From: Candidatus Nomurabacteria bacterium RIFCSPLOWO2_12_FULL_44_11
Lineage (GTDB): Bacteria; Patescibacteriota; Minisyncoccia; Phycocordibacterales; UBA9973
Assembly (NCBI GenBank): GCA_001787125.1
Contig: MFVU01000032.1
Span: 1 to 38,955 of the forward strand
Direction of reading: 5' to 3'
DNA length: 38,955 nt
The notes below the pieces were generated by a model. The model saw only the letters and a program-made list of their open reading frames with translations, was not told the DNA's origin and did not search any database. Shown piece by piece: positions 28,601 to 34,729 of this stretch. How positions within the stretch are numbered: position 1 is the stretch's first letter; each line of letters begins with the position of its first letter. A program made the position numbers and the translations under genes.

Positions 28601-29596
28601 TTATATCATGATTCTTAATTTATATGCATTGCCGTGTTTCAATAAACCTAAATATGATTGTTTCGATTCTTTTTTAGGATTTTCCCTAATTCGTTTCAGC
28701 ATTTTCCTTTTTGTTGAAGTTCTTAAAACTCTATGACGCGGAAAATGCACCCAACCCAGGAAGTCTACCCCGGAAGCAAGAGTTTTAATAAAGACCTTAT
28801 CAGGATGCAGGTATATATTTAAATAGCTATTTAAATAAGTATTAATTTTTGGTAACAAATTTTCTAAATATCCTTTATCTTCATTTAAAATCACAAAATC
28901 GTCAGCGTATCTGATGTAATATTTCACTTTTAGTTCCCTTTTCATAAACTGGTCAAATTCATTCATATAAACATTTACCAGAAGCTGGGAAGTTAAATTG
29001 CCTAATGGTAATCCTTTGTTAATCCTCTCTGCGATAGCAGAGTTACTTAACATTGTAGAAAAGCTGTCTATCACCTGTCCTAGGAGCCAGAGAGTGTCGG
29101 TGTCAAGGTTGAACCTTGACAATATCTTCTTTAAAACCTGACGATTGATGTTTGCAAAGAATTTTTTGATATCGCATTTTAAAATCCAGCAAGTGCGAGT
29201 GTTATTTTTGGAAACCTTGCGAAACATTTGCCGAAACCTGTTTATGGCCTTATGTGTTCCCTTCTCGACTCGGCAGGAGTATGAGTCATGAATGAATTTT
29301 GAATCGAAATATTCATATAGTTCTTGATATATCAAATGATGCAACAATCTGTCCCTGACAGTTGCCTTGTGTATCTGCCTGGGTTTAGGGTCCGAAATAT
29401 TGAAGGCAATATACTCCCCATGCTTGTAGGTCTTATTTTTTAGGTCGTTGTGTAAATCAAATATATTGTCCATCAACTTTGCTTGAAATAAAATCACATC
29501 TTTTCTGTTCCTTTTATCACGCAAAAATTCCTGCCAGGCCAACAGCAGTTTTTCTATGGTTATGATATTATCGTAAGTATGAATAAATTGTCTCAT
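28601..29596 (-). CDS. DGR-type reverse transcriptase
   Basis: 331 aa, RT domain only (no maturase, endonuclease or RNase H region). Contains ..DPKPRQIHKATVRDRLLHHL.., the LPLGNLTSQ motif ([I/L]GxxxSQ, typical of DGR RTs), the catalytic YADD in IRYADDFVIL, and GVDFLGW. Confidence 0.9.
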   Translation of the reverse strand: MRQFIHTYDNIITIEKLLLAWQEFLRDKRNRKDVILFQAKLMDNIFDLHNDLKNKTYKHGEYIAFNISDPKPRQIHKATVRDRLLHHLIYQELYEYFDSKFIHDSYSCRVEKGTHKAINRFRQMFRKVSKNNTRTCWILKCDIKKFFANINRQVLKKILSRFNLDTDTLWLLGQVIDSFSTMLSNSAIAERINKGLPLGNLTSQLLVNVYMNEFDQFMKRELKVKYYIRYADDFVILNEDKGYLENLLPKINTYLNSYLNIYLHPDKVFIKTLASGVDFLGWVHFPRHRVLRTSTKRKMLKRIRENPKKESKQSYLGLLKHGNAYKLRIMI

Positions 29597-29966
29597 ATCG
29601 TTTTACCCCCCCCCAGCGCCGACGGCGCTTCTAAAAGCAAAAACGGCCTACACTCTTTGGTTTAAAGTATATAATGATTTCCCTAAAGCGCATCGTTACG
29701 TATTGGGTGGAAAAATTGAGGACTACTTTCTGGGTCTTTTAGAAAATATTTTCATTTCAATTTATCTACCTCCAGAAACAAAAGTTTCTCGCCTCACCAT
29801 AGCAATATCAAAATTGGATGGCATAAAATTCTTTTTACAAATAGCTTGGGAAAACAAATGCATCCCGAATGAAAAGTATTCTACCCTTTCCGAACACTTG
29901 CAAGAAATCGGCAGAATGCTCGGTGGCTGGAAAAAAGGACTTGAAAAGAAAACTCCTCGGCCGTGA
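29579..29966 (+). pseudogene. Avd-like four-helix-bundle protein gene, frame-interrupted at a C9 tract (opposite strand to RT/TR)
   Basis: Track ORF 29703..29966 (..KLDGIKFFLQIAWENKCIPNEKYSTLSEHLQEIGRMLGGWKKGL) matches the four-helix-bundle (23S-rRNA-IVS/Avd-related) family but lacks its N-terminus. The upstream in-frame sequence (..LLKAKTAYTLWFKVYNDFPKAHRYVLGGKIEDYF) continues the homology without a start codon. An ATG at 29579, 7 nt after TGaTATTAT (29563..29571), is in frame only if the C9 run (29606..29614) were C8 or C11. That change would give a 128-aa protein. Confidence 0.6.
29606..29614. repeat. C9/G9 homopolymer at the avd-like/RT junction
   Basis: Nine consecutive C on the + strand. 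On the minus strand the G9 ends 9 nt upstream of the RT ATG (GGGGGGGGGTAAAACGATATG). It is flanked by the hairpin AGCGCC-gac-GGCGCT (29615..29629). Confidence 0.9.
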
Positions 29967-29990
29967 GGTAGAGGAGAAAAACAAGAGTTT

Positions 29991-30097
29991 CGAGAGAACA
30001 CCCGATTGTCGGCGTTCCACGTGTTCGGGTTCTCGACGGAGTTGGCATTGACGTTCCAACCGCCGTCGTTCCAGTTCACGTTCACGGCACGGAGAAC
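29991..30097 (-). repeat. DGR template repeat (TR)
   Basis: 107 nt. The sense (minus) strand encodes VLRAVNVNWNDGGWNVNANSVENPNTWNADNRVFSR with ten AAY codons and 24 adenines in total. It aligns without gaps to 30496..30602. Confidence 0.9.
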
Positions 30098-30392
30098 CAG
30101 TGTTATCGTACATAAGATCATCTGTATCACTGCCGACCCAAGCACAAACTAAATGTCAGGGATCGTGCTGTATTTTATTTTGGACTTAGAAGTCCACCAA
30201 TATTATGCACCAATTCTTGTTATTTTTTGAAAAAACTTTTTATACTCTTGCGTAAGGCAAAAAGAAAACAGCCCAACGCAACTCTCACAAAAAATTTCTT
30301 AAGACCATGACGCGAAAGCCGTAACCGTCGCGTAGCACATGATTTCAAAAACATTGTATCAAATTACAAAATTAAATGAAGTAAAAATAGAA

Positions 30393-30424
30393 GACACCCG
30401 GCCCGCCGAAGCGAACCGAGTGTC
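30393..30424 (-). terminator. intrinsic terminator of the DGR target gene (14-bp stem, UUCG loop, U-rich tail)
   Basis: Minus-strand RNA GACACUCGGUUCGC-UUCG-GCGGGCCGGGUGUC followed by UUCUAUUUUUACUUCAUUU, 23 nt after the stop codon. Three pairs are G.U on the minus strand and C/A mismatches on the plus strand. Confidence 0.65.
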
Positions 30425-30446
30425 CAAGAGTCCCAGAACCCAAGGG

Positions 30447-31151
30447 TCAGCTTGCGGCTGATTCCTGAGGCACTGAGGATACGAGCGATGAATTGCGAGA
30501 GAACACCCGATCGTCGGCGCTCCACGTGAGCGGGCTCTCGACGGAGAGGGCATTGACGTACCAACCGCCGTCGTACCAGTGCACGAGCACGGCACGGAGA
30601 ACGCCGTTCTGGTCGCGAACGTAGAAGATGTTCGCGCGCCCGTCGTGGAGCAAGACGCCCTCTCCGCCGTTCGGCTGAGCCGCCATCATGGCGAAGACGT
30701 CGGTGAGAGCGACTTCCGTCTTACCCTCGCCGATCGCATCGAGGATCGGCTTGTCGACCGAGCGCTTGGTGAGTCGGGAGTAGCGGAGCTCGGTCGCGCG
30801 CCCGGGTTCTTCGATCTTGCCGAGCACCCACGCCCGGAAGTTGTCGCCGAGGTAGCTGATCTTCACCGGTGCCCTGCGGCTGGTGTCGACCACGAACTTC
30901 TCGGAAGCAACGAAGGCCCAGGTGTTCATCGGCGCGATGTAGGTACCGACGAGCTCGAGGAGAGGCGTCGGAGCGGGCGTCGCGACGGGTTCCTCGACAA
31001 CCAACGAAGCGTACATGGTCTCTGCCATGCGGTTACGCTTCGAGTTGACGATCTGTTGCACAAGAGCGGCACTGAAGCCGGCCTTGTCGAGGACCAATGC
31101 AAATTCATGCATCGCTCCACAGCTCATGTCACACACGCGGTCTGCGCTCAT
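30447..31151 (-). CDS. DGR variable (target) protein, 234 aa, VR at C-terminus
   Basis: AGGAG 8 nt upstream of the ATG. The C-terminus ..VLRAVLVHWYDGGWYVNALSVESPLTWSADDRVFSRNSSLVSS.. is the diversified copy of the TR-encoded peptide. No signal peptide or TM helix. The N-terminal ~175 aa has no family that I recognise. Confidence 0.85.
   Translation of the reverse strand: MSADRVCDMSCGAMHEFALVLDKAGFSAALVQQIVNSKRNRMAETMYASLVVEEPVATPAPTPLLELVGTYIAPMNTWAFVASEKFVVDTSRRAPVKISYLGDNFRAWVLGKIEEPGRATELRYSRLTKRSVDKPILDAIGEGKTEVALTDVFAMMAAQPNGGEGVLLHDGRANIFYVRDQNGVLRAVLVHWYDGGWYVNALSVESPLTWSADDRVFSRNSSLVSSVPQESAAS
30496..30602 (-). repeat. DGR variable repeat (VR)
   Basis: 95/107 identical to the TR. 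The 12 differences correspond to TR + strand T (sense-strand A) at 30007, 30015, 30024, 30025, 30030, 30042, 30043, 30055, 30070, 30076, 30081 and 30082. Confidence 0.9.
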
Positions 31152-31352
31152 GACTGGTCTCCTTTCGGGAGATGCTAGAGGACGACGACTGTCGCCATAG
31201 CTTTTAATTTACAAGATTTTATAAGCTAAAAGCTATGGCAAATCTAGTATTTTCTCGCAGTTTATAAAAGAACCTATATATCCTTATATTATACACCCAA
31301 CAGGCATTTTTGTCAATGTTTTGCTTTTTATTATTTATGGTATATTAGATGT

Positions 31353-31571
31353 ATGAAGAAATTTAATTTACAAAACATTGTTTGGAAAGAAGGGAAATAT
31401 TATGTTTCTCAGTGTTTGAATGTTGATATTTCAAGCTTTGGTAAAACCAGAAATGAATCGCTAAAGAATTTAAGCGAAGCTTTGGATCTTTACTTTGAGG
31501 ACTCTAAAATTCAAAAAATACAAGAGGTGAAAGGTGCGCAACTTGTCCCTTTTGTGTTTAACTATGCCTAA
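31353..31571 (+). CDS. hicB: HicB-like antitoxin
   Basis: 72 aa. NIVWKEGKYYVSQCLNVDISSFGKTRNESLKNLSEALDLYFED. ATG lies 6 nt after TGgTATATT (31338..31346). Confidence 0.7.
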   Translation: MKKFNLQNIVWKEGKYYVSQCLNVDISSFGKTRNESLKNLSEALDLYFEDSKIQKIQEVKGAQLVPFVFNYA

Positions 31572-31779
31572 ACTTTTATCTTCTACGCAAGTAGTAAAAG
31601 TTTTAGAAAATAACGGTTTCGTGTTCATTTCTCAAAAAGGTAGTCATGTAAAATTTAGAAAACTGGGAATAAAGAAGCGAACTGTCATTGTCCCAGCGGG
31701 CAGAAAAGAAATTCCTATGGGTACTCTTCATTCAATAATGCGACAAGCTTCTCTAACAAAAGAGGACTTCGGAATTTAA
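31564..31779 (+). CDS. hicA: HicA-family toxin
   Basis: MPKLLSSTQVVKVLENNGFVFISQKGSHVKFRK..TVIVPAGRKEIPMGTLHSIMRQASL. Start trimmed to 31564, overlapping the hicB stop by 8 nt. Confidence 0.8.
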   Translation: MPKLLSSTQVVKVLENNGFVFISQKGSHVKFRKLGIKKRTVIVPAGRKEIPMGTLHSIMRQASLTKEDFGI

Positions 31780-33557: not shown

Positions 33558-34226
33558 TTAGGGAGATGATTCGACGGCGGTTATCACCAACCGTTGGTTG
33601 TGAGTTCGATATTCAGAAATCCAGCTACCTGTGCAAGTTATCAATTTCAAAAGTGGAGCATCGTTTTGATTGAAAATTTCTTCCGTTGGCGCTTTGTAGT
33701 CATAGGTTTTTATATCCCTGACCACAAAATGCAGGGTGTCGCCTGAAGCTTGATCGATGTATACATCGCTCCCAACTTTTACGTCTTTCAAATCGGCGAA
33801 TACCGCCGGCATGCCGAGTCCGTTATCCACGTGTCCGGAAATTACCGCGCTCCCAACCTCGCCCGGCAGAGTGCCATACTTAAACCAACCGACATCGGTA
33901 TAATTATTTGGTGTGGACATATTGCCAAGCTTCGTAATACCGACTTTCTGCACTTTAGCTTTTACTCCAATGGAAGGTATGCGCAAATATTGCGGGTACA
34001 AAACAGGGTTAATTTTCTTCTCCTCCGGGGAAAAAGTTTTCTTGACATCATTCGGTAAGGCAACCTCATCAGTCGGCGCGTAGGAAACGGCCCGGTAAAC
34101 GGTTCTGCCGAAATAGAACATTGATATGACAATTAATATCGCTACAAACGGTATTGTTTTATTTTGTTTCATAACGCTAAAGACGGATACCCGTAGTTTC
34201 CTGGCATCCGTCTTTGTAGGTATCAC
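33558..34226 (-). CDS. sortase-family transpeptidase
   Basis: TM anchor, ISGHVDN (catalytic His), LKLITCTG (TLxTC Cys), ..NQRLVITA (Arg). An alternative start is MKQNK at 34172. Confidence 0.8.
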   Translation of the reverse strand: MIPTKTDARKLRVSVFSVMKQNKTIPFVAILIVISMFYFGRTVYRAVSYAPTDEVALPNDVKKTFSPEEKKINPVLYPQYLRIPSIGVKAKVQKVGITKLGNMSTPNNYTDVGWFKYGTLPGEVGSAVISGHVDNGLGMPAVFADLKDVKVGSDVYIDQASGDTLHFVVRDIKTYDYKAPTEEIFNQNDAPLLKLITCTGSWISEYRTHNQRLVITAVESSP

Positions 34227-34237
34227 CCTATTTTACC

Positions 34238-34729
34238 TTACCTTAGCACATATTTGCGAGCAAGATAAAGTGAACCCAAGAGCATTGCCAAGGCCGAGGT
34301 TAGGATTAGGATCACGTTACGCGATGCATCACCTCCCGCACCGGTGGTAGGAAATCCCAAGGATCCCGTTCCAGAAACAATTACGGGCGTGGCCACTGCC
34401 GTGCCATTACAGGGCTCACCAGTAATCGAACTGTAACCTATAGTAGAAGAACAGCCAGCGAGCCATTGTATAGCCACTGACCCTCCGCTACAAGGACGGC
34501 CGTTGATTGAACTGTATCCTAGGGCACTGGTGCAACCGGGCATGTATCTCGCGGTGGCAACACTGGTGCCGTTACAAGGAAGTCCGGTAGTGGCGCTGTA
34601 GCCCAGCCCGGAGGCACAGCCCGCTGGAAATGTCGCGGTTTGAGCTTCGGCAGTAGAAACCGAAGAAAACGCTACGCCGCTTATTACGAGAGCAAACAAC
34701 AAAACAGAGAGAGCGAGTTTGTTAATCAT
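34238..34729 (-). CDS. secreted triple Cys-pair-repeat protein with FPTTG sorting signal (sortase substrate)
   Basis: Signal peptide. Three ~27-aa repeats GC(A/T/S)S.(L/I)GYS..(T/N)G.PC.G..VA. C-terminal FPTTG + hydrophobic helix + ARKYVLR. Confidence 0.7.
   Translation of the reverse strand: MINKLALSVLLFALVISGVAFSSVSTAEAQTATFPAGCASGLGYSATTGLPCNGTSVATARYMPGCTSALGYSSINGRPCSGGSVAIQWLAGCSSTIGYSSITGEPCNGTAVATPVIVSGTGSLGFPTTGAGGDASRNVILILTSALAMLLGSLYLARKYVLR

What the first reader, a model, noticed from the sequence alone, without database searches (positions are those of the whole stretch)
30447..31151. DGR target protein looks non-canonical: cytoplasmic-looking, no CLec-type VR signature, alternating variable/invariant beta-hairpin pattern
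The 234-aa target has no signal peptide, lipobox or TM segment, and its N-terminal ~175 aa match no family I recognise. The VR reads V-x-V-x-W-x-DGG-W-x-V-N-A-x-SVE-x-P-x-TW-x-AD-x-RVFSRNS (x = diversified).

In VxVxWx and WxVNAx the variable residues alternate with conserved hydrophobic or aromatic residues on either side of a DGG turn. This suggests a beta-hairpin with one hypervariable face (inference).

I do not see the Cys/Gly-Trp...Arg...GFR-type ending of the C-type-lectin/FGE-like VRs that dominate described DGR targets. This may be a different diversification scaffold with an intracellular ligand.
Basis: partly seen in the sequence, partly recalled or inferred. Interest (0 to 1): 0.75.

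Follow-up and report, generated by a model that had tools for sequence, protein, structure and literature searches.

The report
Signal-less hypervariable DGR target protein family
This gene is the actively diversified target of a mutagenic retroelement in a groundwater ultra-small (CPR) bacterium; it belongs to a very large, unnamed protein family with no export signal and no recognisable fold, a class of target already flagged as unexplained in the literature.

Summary
ORF 30447-31151 (-) is the target of a complete diversity-generating retroelement (DGR). It carries VR 30490-30602, TR 29985-30097, an inverted avd and an RT, and 13 of the 14 TR/VR mismatches fall at TR adenines.

The protein matches nothing in Pfam, NCBIfam, PHROGs, PADLOC or PDB sequences. 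A hydropathy scan finds no signal peptide or TM segment.

It belongs to a large family found almost only in Patescibacteria (3,593 50%-identity clusters). The same alternating positions are hypervariable across the whole family. A variant from other samples differs only at 9 VR positions, so the DGR is or recently was active.

The AlphaFold2 model is confident (pLDDT >90 for residues ~60-222). It supports the hairpin inference: strands 185-193 and 196-203 around a two-residue turn.

Whether this is "a different scaffold" remains open:
- Foldseek and hhalign give no significant match, including to solved DGR proteins.
- However, the secondary-structure order (beta-alpha-alpha-beta-beta-beta-loop-beta, with the invariant last strand encoded by the IMH) equals the published CLec core.
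- The best weak structural hits are C-type lectins.

Signal-less CPR targets of unassigned fold were already reported (Wu 2018; Roux 2021).

Side findings are a GC island confined to the target ORF family-wide, and a length-variable poly-C tract that frameshifts avd.

The parts
30447..31151 (-). DGR target gene (234 aa), a monocistronic unit and a GC island (62% GC, GC3 80%).
30978..31151 (-). N-terminal ~58-aa helical module plus Pro-rich linker. It is variable between family members. This type is shared only with P0003, P0004 and P0392.
30486..30974 (-). Conserved alpha/beta domain (residues ~60-222) that defines the family. AF2 pLDDT is above 90.
30490..30602 (-). Variable repeat (VR), residues 184-221. 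It has 9 recoded codons here and 10 AAY codons plus 4 single-A codons in the TR, giving about 1.5e14 protein variants.
30490..30508 (-). IMH-like invariant 3' end of the VR (GGGTGTTCTCTCGCAATTC). It encodes RVFSRNS, the last strand of the model. It differs from the TR copy at 2 bases.
30392..30425 (-). Intrinsic-terminator-like hairpin (15-bp stem plus T run) 22 nt after the target stop codon.
31288..31316 (-). Consensus sigma-70 promoter (TTGACA-17-TATAAT, 12/12) upstream of the target.
29985..30097 (-). Template repeat (TR), with AAC/AAT at every diversified codon.
29579..29966 (+). avd (accessory variability determinant) on the opposite strand, between TR and RT (architecture TR-(avd)-RT). 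In this window the ATG at 29579 is out of frame with the Avd body.
29606..29614 (+). C9 homopolymer in the 5' part of avd (G9 on the RT strand, 9 nt upstream of the RT ATG). C8 would restore a 129-aa Avd.
28601..29596 (-). DGR reverse transcriptase (331 aa). It has RVT_1, an LGNLTSQ motif and YADD.

Best explanation
**What it is (shown).** This is the cis target of an active, architecture-B3 DGR (TR-(avd)-RT) in a Patescibacteria chromosome.

**How diversification works (established DGR mechanism; its footprint is seen here).**
- RT with Avd copies TR RNA into cDNA and misincorporates opposite adenines.
- The cDNA replaces the last 113 nt of the coding region. The invariant IMH end sets the boundary.
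- Ten AAY codons and four single-A codons allow about 1e14 protein variants.
- The same TR also rewrites paralogous copies elsewhere in the genome (shown in a related MAG).

**The protein (shown).** It has a short, lineage-variable helical N-terminal module. This is followed by a ~165-residue alpha/beta domain that defines a very large family found almost only in CPR bacteria.

**Placement of the variable residues (model plus inference).**
- They sit on one face of a beta-hairpin: 189/191/193 and 198/200/202.
- They also sit on the following loop: 206/208/211/214.
- They are framed by invariant V/W/A/P/W residues and a constant last strand (RVFSR).
- Together this gives a single contiguous hypervariable binding surface.

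**Fold (inference, about 50-60%).** The scaffold is most likely a minimal, insert-free and very divergent CLec-like core, not an unrelated fold.

**Location and action (inference, about 60%).**
- The protein has no export signal, no effector or NTPase domain and no conserved operon partner.
- It therefore most likely acts in the cytoplasm as a stand-alone binder.
- It could sequester its ligand or recruit partners through its N-terminal module.
- The ligand is unknown; invading phage proteins or host-derived proteins are the obvious candidates.
For: **DGR anatomy and adenine bias**
- establish the parts and the bias.
- 13 of 14 mismatches here are at TR adenines. Across the 44 locus matches the counts are 728 A against 147 non-A; about 100 of the non-A mismatches come from three paralogous second-copy matches (L015, L029, L038).

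**Activity**
- P0271, from other Rifle-aquifer assemblies, is identical to the window protein except at 9 VR positions. Its TR is unchanged.

**Trans targets**
- The L017 VR compared with the L009 TR of the same MAG shows 16 of 17 mismatches at adenines.

**Family size and shape**
- One search found 466 hits. One search found 3,593 clusters at E<=1e-3 and 962 at E<=1e-30.
- 178 species genomes carry a relative, nearly all labelled CPR.
- The domain is conserved over residues 60-222 while the N-termini vary.

**Structure**
- The full-length AF2 model has pLDDT 84, and over 90 across residues 60-222. Four of five models agree.
- The hairpin register is supported by the top covariation pair W192-W197.
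- Entropy alternates along the VR.

**CLec-like reading**
- The element order and the VR/beta5/IMH relation match the CLec core definition in PMC6328139.
- C-type lectin domains (CTLDs) rank 1, 9, 19, 20, 37 and 48 among the PDB Foldseek hits. A CTLD also ranks 10 in BFVD.

**Cytoplasmic, stand-alone reading**
- The hydropathy scan is negative.
- No neighbour is conserved other than Avd and RT in 80 loci.
- No defence-system model matches.
Against: **Against the fold reading**
- No structural match reaches E<=1e-3 in PDB or BFVD. TM-scores to CTLDs are only 0.32-0.40.
- No solved DGR variable protein or FGE appears in the top 50.
- hhalign against the Mtd family is null.
- A model of the C-terminal domain alone loses confidence (pLDDT 63), and its weak hits are SH2 and PhzG rather than lectins.
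- The beta1-beta5 pairing could not be inspected because no coordinates were available.

**Against the cytoplasmic reading**
- 4 of 268 relatives carry a signal peptide, lipobox or N-terminal TM segments (P0122, P0144, P0246, P0268). The domain can therefore work outside the cell.
- Non-classical export cannot be excluded.

**Against current activity**
- In this window avd is frameshifted, so the element may currently be OFF.
Confidence: 0.55

Rival explanations
1. The ~165-residue domain is a genuinely new hypervariable scaffold. It would be neither CLec nor Ig, and it would have been recruited independently by CPR DGRs.
For: - No significant Foldseek hit was found in 350,542 PDB chains or in BFVD, despite a confident model.
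- No hit was found in Pfam, NCBIfam, PHROGs or PADLOC, nor with a PDB profile search.
- hhalign against Mtd is null.
- The C-terminal 123 residues do not fold confidently without residues 60-111. The unit is therefore larger than a CLec core.
Against: - The secondary-structure order and the placement of the VR and IMH equal the CLec core.
- CTLDs are enriched among the weak hits.
- Known CLec classes of DGR targets are also undetectable from each other by sequence (Wu 2018, PMC5758913).
- TaqVP likewise has an N-terminal wrap around its CLec domain (PMC6328139).
Confidence: 0.35
2. The protein acts outside the cell, for example in attachment of the episymbiont to its host. It would be released or displayed by a route that needs no Sec signal. 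The ligand would then be extracellular, as for Mtd, TvpA and LdtA.
For: - A few relatives have signal peptide, lipobox or TM N-termini in place of the helical module.
- CPR bacteria live attached to other cells, and classical DGR targets are surface proteins. Both points come from general knowledge, not from a test here.
Against: - More than 98% of 268 family members, including this one, lack any export signal.
- There is no LPXTG or C-terminal anchor, although a sortase and a substrate lie 2.4 kb away.
- No secretion-system neighbour is conserved.
Confidence: 0.3
3. The cassette is decaying. avd is frameshifted, so the VR is a frozen relic and the target no longer diversifies.
For: - The C9 tract puts the avd ATG out of frame in this window and in 6 of the 9 sister assemblies (9 of 10 sequences are out of frame in all).
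- 23 of 29 related cassettes with a tract are also out of frame.
Against: - Sister assemblies carry C8 (in frame), C9 and C10 on otherwise identical DNA.
- The VR differs at 9 codons between samples while the TR is identical.
- The tract is conserved in position across 29 of 36 cassettes. That argues for function, not decay.
- RT, TR and IMH are intact.
Confidence: 0.1
4. The GC-rich target gene is an assembly chimera or a very recent horizontal insertion from a high-GC organism.
For: The ORF is 62% GC (GC3 80%) in a 44% GC window, and the edges of the island are sharp.
Against: - The same junctions occur in at least 10 independent assemblies.
- The TR, 350 nt away, matches the VR.
- 77 of 78 family loci show the same GC excess, including copies with no adjacent RT.
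- Target divergence between cassettes (~58% aa) is similar to RT divergence (~63%).
Confidence: 0.02

Closest known systems
CPR/Patescibacteria DGRs of architecture B3 with unassigned VR classes (UVR1-6; Wu et al. 2018, PMC5758913), i.e. RT clade 2 targets of Roux et al. 2021 (PMC8144416)
   Same: - The TR-(avd)-RT order with inverted avd is the same.
- The VR is C-terminal.
- The target has no Pfam motif and no TM or signal sequence.
- The host is a CPR bacterium from groundwater.
   Different: - I could not check which UVR class this VR belongs to, because the supplement is not held. UVR1 (DUF1127) and UVR4 (Midasin/AAA) are excluded by the Pfam scans.
- New here are the family size, a confident AF2 model, the GC island and the avd poly-C tract.
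CLec-fold DGR variable proteins (Mtd, TvpA, AvpA, TaqVP)
   Same: - The order of core elements is the same.
- The VR lies between beta3 and beta5.
- The invariant IMH-encoded residues lie on the last strand.
- Solvent-exposed variable residues are framed by conserved aromatic and hydrophobic residues.
- AAY codon usage is the same.
   Different: - No detectable sequence or Foldseek similarity was found.
- No FGE-sulfatase or DUF1566 signature is present.
- It is much smaller, with no inserts.
- Variable residues lie mainly in regular beta-strands.
- There is no signal peptide or lipobox, and it is not part of a phage tail.
Cytoplasmic DGR-diversified 'antigen sensors' of multicellular bacteria and cyanobacteria (Dore et al. 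2024, PMC10907252; Kaur et al. 2020, PMC7159879)
   Same: - The predicted location is cytoplasmic.
- Several targets per genome are rewritten from one TR.
- A hypervariable C-terminal binding domain is present.
   Different: - Those targets carry STAND/AAA NTPase, adaptor or effector domains and sit in conflict-system operons.
- This protein is a stand-alone domain with no conserved neighbour and no PADLOC hit.
Ig-fold DGR targets (Ig1/Ig2 classes)
   Same: Variable residues lie in the body of beta-strands and alternate with buried residues.
   Different: The model contains five helices and is alpha/beta, not an all-beta sandwich.

Membership tests
DGR variable (target) protein | VR/TR repeat pair whose mismatches fall at TR adenines | tested here: met
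   - 13 of 14 mismatches are at TR adenines.
- The same bias is seen in 41 family loci.
DGR variable (target) protein | Neighbouring DGR-type reverse transcriptase | tested here: met
   - RVT_1 matches at E 4e-24.
- phrog_1423 matches at E 6e-100.
- LGNLTSQ and YADD motifs are visible in the translation.
DGR variable (target) protein | Avd accessory protein | tested here: met
   - DivGenRetAVD matches at E 2.5e-12, below NCBIfam's curated cut-off (47 vs 80 bits).
- bAvd matches at E 1.7e-9, just below Pfam's gathering score (38.6 vs 40 bits).
- The Avd PHROG matches.
- The gene is frameshifted at a C9 tract in this window.
DGR variable (target) protein | Evidence of ongoing diversification | tested here: met
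   P0271 differs from the window protein at 9 VR codons only, and its TR is identical.
CLec-fold variable proteins (FGE-sulfatase / DUF1566 / Mtd types) | Profile match to FGE-sulfatase, DUF1566, Lectin_C or the Mtd family | tested here: not met
   - Pfam gives no hit for this protein or for 79 relatives at E<=10.
- hhalign against an Mtd-family alignment gives probability 0.05%.
CLec-fold variable proteins (FGE-sulfatase / DUF1566 / Mtd types) | Structural similarity to solved CLec proteins | tested here: inconclusive
   - No Foldseek hit has E<=1e-3.
- 6 of the top 50 PDB hits are CTLDs, with TM 0.32-0.40.
- The domain-only model has low confidence.
CLec-fold variable proteins (FGE-sulfatase / DUF1566 / Mtd types) | Core order beta1-alpha1-alpha2-beta2-beta3-beta4-(beta4')-beta5, with the VR between beta3 and beta5 and the IMH-encoded invariant residues on beta5 (PMC6328139) | tested here: met
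   - DSSP on the AF2 model gives E120-127, H133-140, H149-158, E174-179, E185-193, E196-203, loop, E215-219.
- This is met at the secondary-structure level only.
CLec-fold variable proteins (FGE-sulfatase / DUF1566 / Mtd types) | N- and C-terminal strands paired antiparallel, with two roughly perpendicular helices | not testable with these tools
   - Model coordinates are not exposed.
- Mean-field DCA on 339 sequences was too noisy.
Ig-fold DGR targets | All-beta sandwich domain carrying the VR | tested here: not met
   The model has helices at 82-85, 103-108, 133-140 and 149-158 within the VR-bearing domain.
Surface-displayed or secreted DGR targets (LdtA/TvpA-like) | Signal peptide, lipobox, TM anchor or sortase signal | tested here: not met
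   - The Kyte-Doolittle scan gives a maximum 19-mer of 1.35 and no N-terminal hydrophobic region.
- The C-terminus has no LPXTG or TM segment.
- SignalP was not available.
DGR-diversified conflict-system sensors (STAND/AAA + CLec) | NTPase, adaptor or effector domain in the target, or a conserved effector neighbour | tested here: not met
   - Pfam and PADLOC are negative.
- No neighbour family is conserved in 80 loci other than Avd and RT.
CPR DGR architecture B3, TR-(avd)-RT (Wu 2018) | avd on the opposite strand between TR and RT | tested here: met
   - The arrangement is present in the window.
- The same order and spacing are seen in about 38 related cassettes.

The most novel reading that the evidence does not exclude
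The family is a new, non-CLec and non-Ig hypervariable scaffold. Ultra-small CPR bacteria would use it in the cytoplasm as a stand-alone, antibody-like binder against invading phage proteins or host-derived proteins. Its diversification would be switched on and off by slipped-strand length changes of a conserved poly-C tract in avd.
Probability: 0.2. Interest if true: 0.85.

Novelty: new variant of a known kind. Interest (0 to 1): 0.5.

Why it matters
**The open question.** DGR targets of CPR bacteria are the largest block of diversified proteins whose fold, location and ligand are unknown. Roux 2021 explicitly leaves open whether they are genuine non-membrane targets.

**What this window adds.** It gives a clean, active representative of one very large such family, together with:
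- a confident structural model;
- defined variable positions;
- natural VR alleles.

**Why that helps.** Three things become directly testable:
- the fold, by superposition or crystallography;
- the location, by proteomics;
- the ligand, by pull-down.

If the scaffold proves to be new, it would be a third natural framework for massive sequence variation. It would also be a compact (~165 aa), cysteine-poor candidate for engineered binders.

**The side findings.** The poly-C tract in avd and the GC island confined to the target ORF hint at unrecognised layers of DGR regulation and of target-gene evolution.

Tried and rejected
1. **Domain-only AF2 model (residues 112-234).** Confidence fell to pLDDT 63. 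Foldseek gave only SH2 and PhzG noise. The N-terminal half of the domain is therefore integral, and this test could not settle the fold.
2. **hhalign against Mtd.** Both the single sequence and a 35-sequence family profile gave null results. This carries little weight because CLec classes are mutually undetectable by sequence.
3. **Mean-field DCA on 339 family sequences (Neff 264).** It recovered only the local hairpins (179-185/186, 192-197). Long-range pairs were dominated by gap artefacts, so it could not test beta1-beta5 pairing.
4. **Weak Pfam Imm31 hits (8 of 79 relatives, best E 0.0025).** They map to a 28-residue piece of the N-terminal module of one subgroup, lie below the cut-off, and are absent from this protein. 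Rejected as a functional lead.
5. **Search with the N-terminal 59 aa.** Only one fragmentary hit was found, so there is no evidence of a shared adaptor domain.
6. **Conserved hairpin downstream of the IMH.** The DNA is strikingly conserved. RNAalifold finds no supported consensus structure and no compensatory pairs.
7. **Recent HGT as the cause of the GC island.** Rejected.
8. **Adenine avoidance as the cause of the GC island.** Both A and T are depleted at third codon positions.
9. **Literature access.** Paul et al. 2017 (PMC5436926) and the Wu 2018 supplement could not be read. The UVR class of this VR is therefore unassigned.
Full report
**1. What is at the coordinates**

ORF 30447-31151 on the minus strand encodes 234 aa.

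It looks like an independent transcription unit:
- a 12/12 consensus sigma-70 promoter at 31316-31288;
- an AAAGGAGA ribosome-binding site;
- a 15-bp-stem terminator at 30425-30392.

Its last 113 nt (30490-30602) are repeated at 29985-30097 at 88% identity. In the alignment, 13 of 14 mismatches lie at adenines of the downstream copy. The fourteenth lies in the very 3' end.

Downstream on the same strand is a 331-aa reverse transcriptase at 28601-29596. It matches RVT_1 at E 4e-24 and the DGR RT PHROG at E 6e-100, and carries LGNLTSQ and YADD motifs.

Between TR and RT, on the opposite strand, is an Avd homologue.

This is a complete DGR of the TR-(avd)-RT layout. Wu et al. 2018 call this architecture B3 and find it in 90% of CPR DGRs (PMC5758913).

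The rest of the window is ordinary chromosomal content: DnaE, HisRS, GAPDH, GH130, a sortase and a P-type ATPase. The same locus occurs in many groundwater (Rifle aquifer) assemblies.

**2. Check of the observation**

The recoded codons are 189, 191, 193, 198, 202, 206, 208, 211 and 214. All are AAC or AAT in the TR. N200 is a tenth AAY codon that happens to be unchanged here.

The TR allows about 1.5e14 protein variants.

The protein has no hit in Pfam, NCBIfam, PHROGs or PADLOC. Single-sequence and profile searches against PDB sequences give nothing meaningful.

A hydropathy scan shows no TM segment and no signal-peptide core. The C-terminus has no sorting signal. SignalP itself was not available.

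**3. The protein belongs to a very large family**

Family size:
- The word-indexed search found 466 relatives. All are about 220-245 aa and none has a Pfam domain.
- An exhaustive profile search found 3,593 clusters at 50% identity (E<=1e-3), of which 962 have E<=1e-30.
- 178 species-representative genomes encode a relative. Nearly all are labelled Patescibacteria lineages.

Family shape:
- The alignment shows a conserved domain from residue ~60 to 222.
- It is preceded by an N-terminal ~55-residue region that comes in several unrelated types.

Genomic context:
- Of 81 loci, 41 have an adenine-biased TR 300-350 nt downstream of the stop, followed by inverted avd and RT at fixed spacing.
- The remaining copies lack a nearby RT but are diversified too. 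The VR of orphan L017 matches the TR of cassette L009 from the same MAG, with 16 of 17 mismatches at adenines. One TR therefore serves several paralogues.
- No other neighbouring gene family is conserved.

**4. The element is, or recently was, active**

P0271 comes from other assemblies of the same population. It is identical to the window protein except at nine VR positions, and its TR is unchanged.

**5. Structure**

AlphaFold2 with a 52-sequence alignment gives mean pLDDT 84, and above 90 for almost all of residues 60-222. Four of five models agree.

The secondary structure is:
- three helices in the N-terminal module;
- E65-73, H82-85, E98-101, H103-108;
- E120-127, H133-140, H149-158;
- E174-179, E185-193, E196-203, a loop, then E215-219.

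The VR therefore covers the end of one strand, a two-residue turn (D194-G195), the next strand, a loop, and the last strand.

With a two-residue turn, 193 pairs with 196, 191 with 198 and 189 with 200. All hypervariable side chains then share one face, and V188/V190/W192 with W197/V199/A201 share the other. The strongest covariation pair in that region is W192-W197.

**6. Is it a CLec fold?**

*Against membership:*
- Foldseek finds no hit with E<=1e-3 in 350,542 PDB chains or in BFVD.
- No solved DGR variable protein or FGE appears among the top 50.
- hhalign against an Mtd-family profile is null.
- No relative matches any lectin-type Pfam model, even at E<=10.

*For a CLec-like core:*
- The TaqVP paper (PMC6328139) defines the core by three features:
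  - N- and C-terminal antiparallel strands beta1 and beta5;
  - two helices;
  - a beta2-beta3-beta4(-beta4') sheet, with the binding site between beta3 and beta5 and the invariant IMH-encoded residues on beta5.
- The order E120-127 / H133-140 / H149-158 / E174-179 / E185-193 / E196-203 / loop / E215-219 fits this definition one to one. RVFSRNS sits on the last strand.
- TaqVP also has an N-terminal beta/alpha wrap around its core.
- Six of the top 50 weak PDB hits are C-type lectin domains (rhodocetin, MCL, BDCA2, DCIR2). They span about 120-130 aligned columns at TM 0.32-0.40.
- A herpesvirus C-type lectin ranks 10th in BFVD.

*What failed to resolve it:*
- A model of residues 112-234 alone lost confidence (pLDDT 63) and gave uninformative hits.
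- I could not inspect strand pairing, because coordinates are not exposed and DCA was too noisy.

*My reading:*
- A minimal, very divergent CLec-like core is somewhat more likely (about 50-60%) than an unrelated new scaffold (about 35%).
- Membership is not demonstrated.
- An Ig fold is excluded by the helices.

**7. Location and mode of action**

This protein and more than 98% of 268 relatives have no export signal.

Four relatives replace the helical N-terminal module with an export or membrane segment:
- a signal peptide (P0122, two tandem domains);
- a lipobox (P0268);
- TM segments (P0144, P0246).

The domain is therefore compatible with an extracytoplasmic life, but that is the exception.

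There is no NTPase, effector or adaptor domain and no conserved partner gene. This differs from the cytoplasmic DGR "antigen sensors" of multicellular bacteria (PMC10907252).

The most economical mechanism is a cytoplasmic stand-alone binder. It could act by sequestration, or it could couple to partners through its swappable N-terminal module. This is inference. The ligand is unknown.

**8. Relation to the literature**

- Wu 2018 left six CPR VR classes (UVR1-6) without a fold. For UVR2, 3, 5 and 6 they found no motif in the targets.
- Roux 2021 state that CPR clade-2 targets typically lack TM or other domains. They also say it is unresolved whether these are genuine non-membrane targets, and they expect new CLec variants in CPR.

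The finding therefore rediscovers a documented open problem. It is not a new kind of system.

What is added here:
- the size and uniformity of this family;
- a confident model with no structural neighbour;
- the trans-target evidence;
- natural VR alleles.

**9. Things seen outside the question**

(a) *GC island.*
- The target ORF is 62% GC with GC3 80%. The RT has GC3 40% and the window is 44% GC.
- The same holds in 77 of 78 family loci, with a mean excess of 11.6 points. The edges fall sharply at the start and stop codons, including in orphan copies.
- RT GC tracks the host (r 0.84). Target GC hardly does (r 0.45).
- Target and RT have diverged to similar degrees, so recent transfer does not explain it.
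- I have no tested explanation.

(b) *avd poly-C tract.*
- avd carries a C9 tract at 29606-29614. This puts its ATG (29579) out of frame.
- Among the ten sequences (the window plus nine sister assemblies), seven carry C9, one C10 and two C8. The C8 copy L093 reads a full 129-aa Avd; the other C8 copy (L095) also has an extra A and is out of frame.
- 29 of 36 related cassettes have a C7-C16 tract at the same position. Six are in frame and 23 are out of frame.
- This looks like a slipped-strand or transcriptional-slippage switch on DGR activity.
- Homopolymer assembly error is the alternative.
- I found no paper describing such a tract.

**10. Verdict**

- The object is a new variant within a known kind: a DGR variable protein of the CPR type.
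- Interest is moderate. The side observations may deserve their own follow-up.

Noticed in passing
window 29579-29966 (+), tract at 29606-29614; L087-L095; L006-L084: - avd has a C9 homopolymer just after its ATG, which puts the Avd body out of frame.
- Sister assemblies of the same locus carry C8 (one of the two reads an in-frame 129-aa Avd), C9 or C10.
- 29 of 36 related cassettes have a C7-C16 tract at the same position. Only 6 are in frame.
- This is a candidate phase-variation or transcriptional-slippage switch on DGR activity. Homopolymer assembly error is the alternative.
- On the other strand, the G run lies 9 nt upstream of the RT start codon and could double as its ribosome-binding site.
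   Followed up: partly
window 30447-31151; 78 family loci (L001-L084): - The target ORF is a sharp GC island: 62% GC and GC3 80%, against RT GC3 40% and a 44% GC window.
- 77 of 78 family loci show the same excess (mean +11.6 points), including RT-less copies.
- RT GC tracks the host genome, but target GC barely does.
- Recent HGT and adenine avoidance alone do not explain it.
   Followed up: partly
L017 vs L009; L049 vs L050: Family copies with no RT or TR within 6 kb are trans targets of a cassette elsewhere in the same genome. The VR/TR mismatches are 16 of 17 and 14 of 17 at adenines.
   Followed up: yes
P0121, P0122, P0144, P0246, P0268 (relatives): - Rare architectures exist in the family.
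- P0121 has five tandem copies of the domain in 926 aa, each with a diversified-looking VR.
- P0122 has two copies behind a signal peptide.
- Single-domain members exist with a lipobox (P0268) or N-terminal TM segments (P0144, P0246).
   Followed up: partly
window 30392-30490 and the equivalent region in about 60 loci: - About 100 nt after the IMH are nearly identical at the DNA level across genera. This includes the codons of the C-terminal tail (consensus SVLESSEPSAPAQA) and repeated CCTTTGACCC-like motifs before the terminator.
- The tail may therefore be conserved for a DNA or RNA reason and not a protein reason.
- RNAalifold found no supported consensus hairpin.
   Followed up: partly
window 31194-31239: A 21-nt inverted repeat (86% complementary, 4-nt spacer) lies between the consensus promoter (31316-31288) and the target RBS. 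It could be a 5'-UTR hairpin or an operator.
   Followed up: no
window 31353-31779 (+): A two-gene toxin-antitoxin pair lies divergent from the target gene. One gene is a HicB-like or DUF7387-like antitoxin of 72 aa. The other is a HicA toxin of 81 aa (HicA_toxin, E 4e-17).
   Followed up: no
window 30579-31178 (+): A 199-aa ORF runs antisense to the target. Equivalent antisense ORFs occur in 67 of 80 loci. This is a by-product of the GC-rich, stop-poor sequence and not evidence of a gene.
   Followed up: partly
window 33558-34729 (-): A sortase (222 aa) lies next to a 163-aa protein with a signal peptide, Cys-rich repeats and a C-terminal FPTTG motif, hydrophobic segment and basic tail. That protein is a likely sortase substrate. 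The DGR target itself has no such signal.
   Followed up: no
P0008 and 7 other relatives, residues ~20-47: Weak, sub-threshold Pfam Imm31 (immunity protein 31) matches fall in one type of N-terminal module. That module type is not present in the window protein.
   Followed up: partly
L094 vs L095 (sister assemblies): One assembly has about 100 extra bases between the target terminator and the TR (RT start shifted by 155 nt) in an otherwise identical locus.
   Followed up: no
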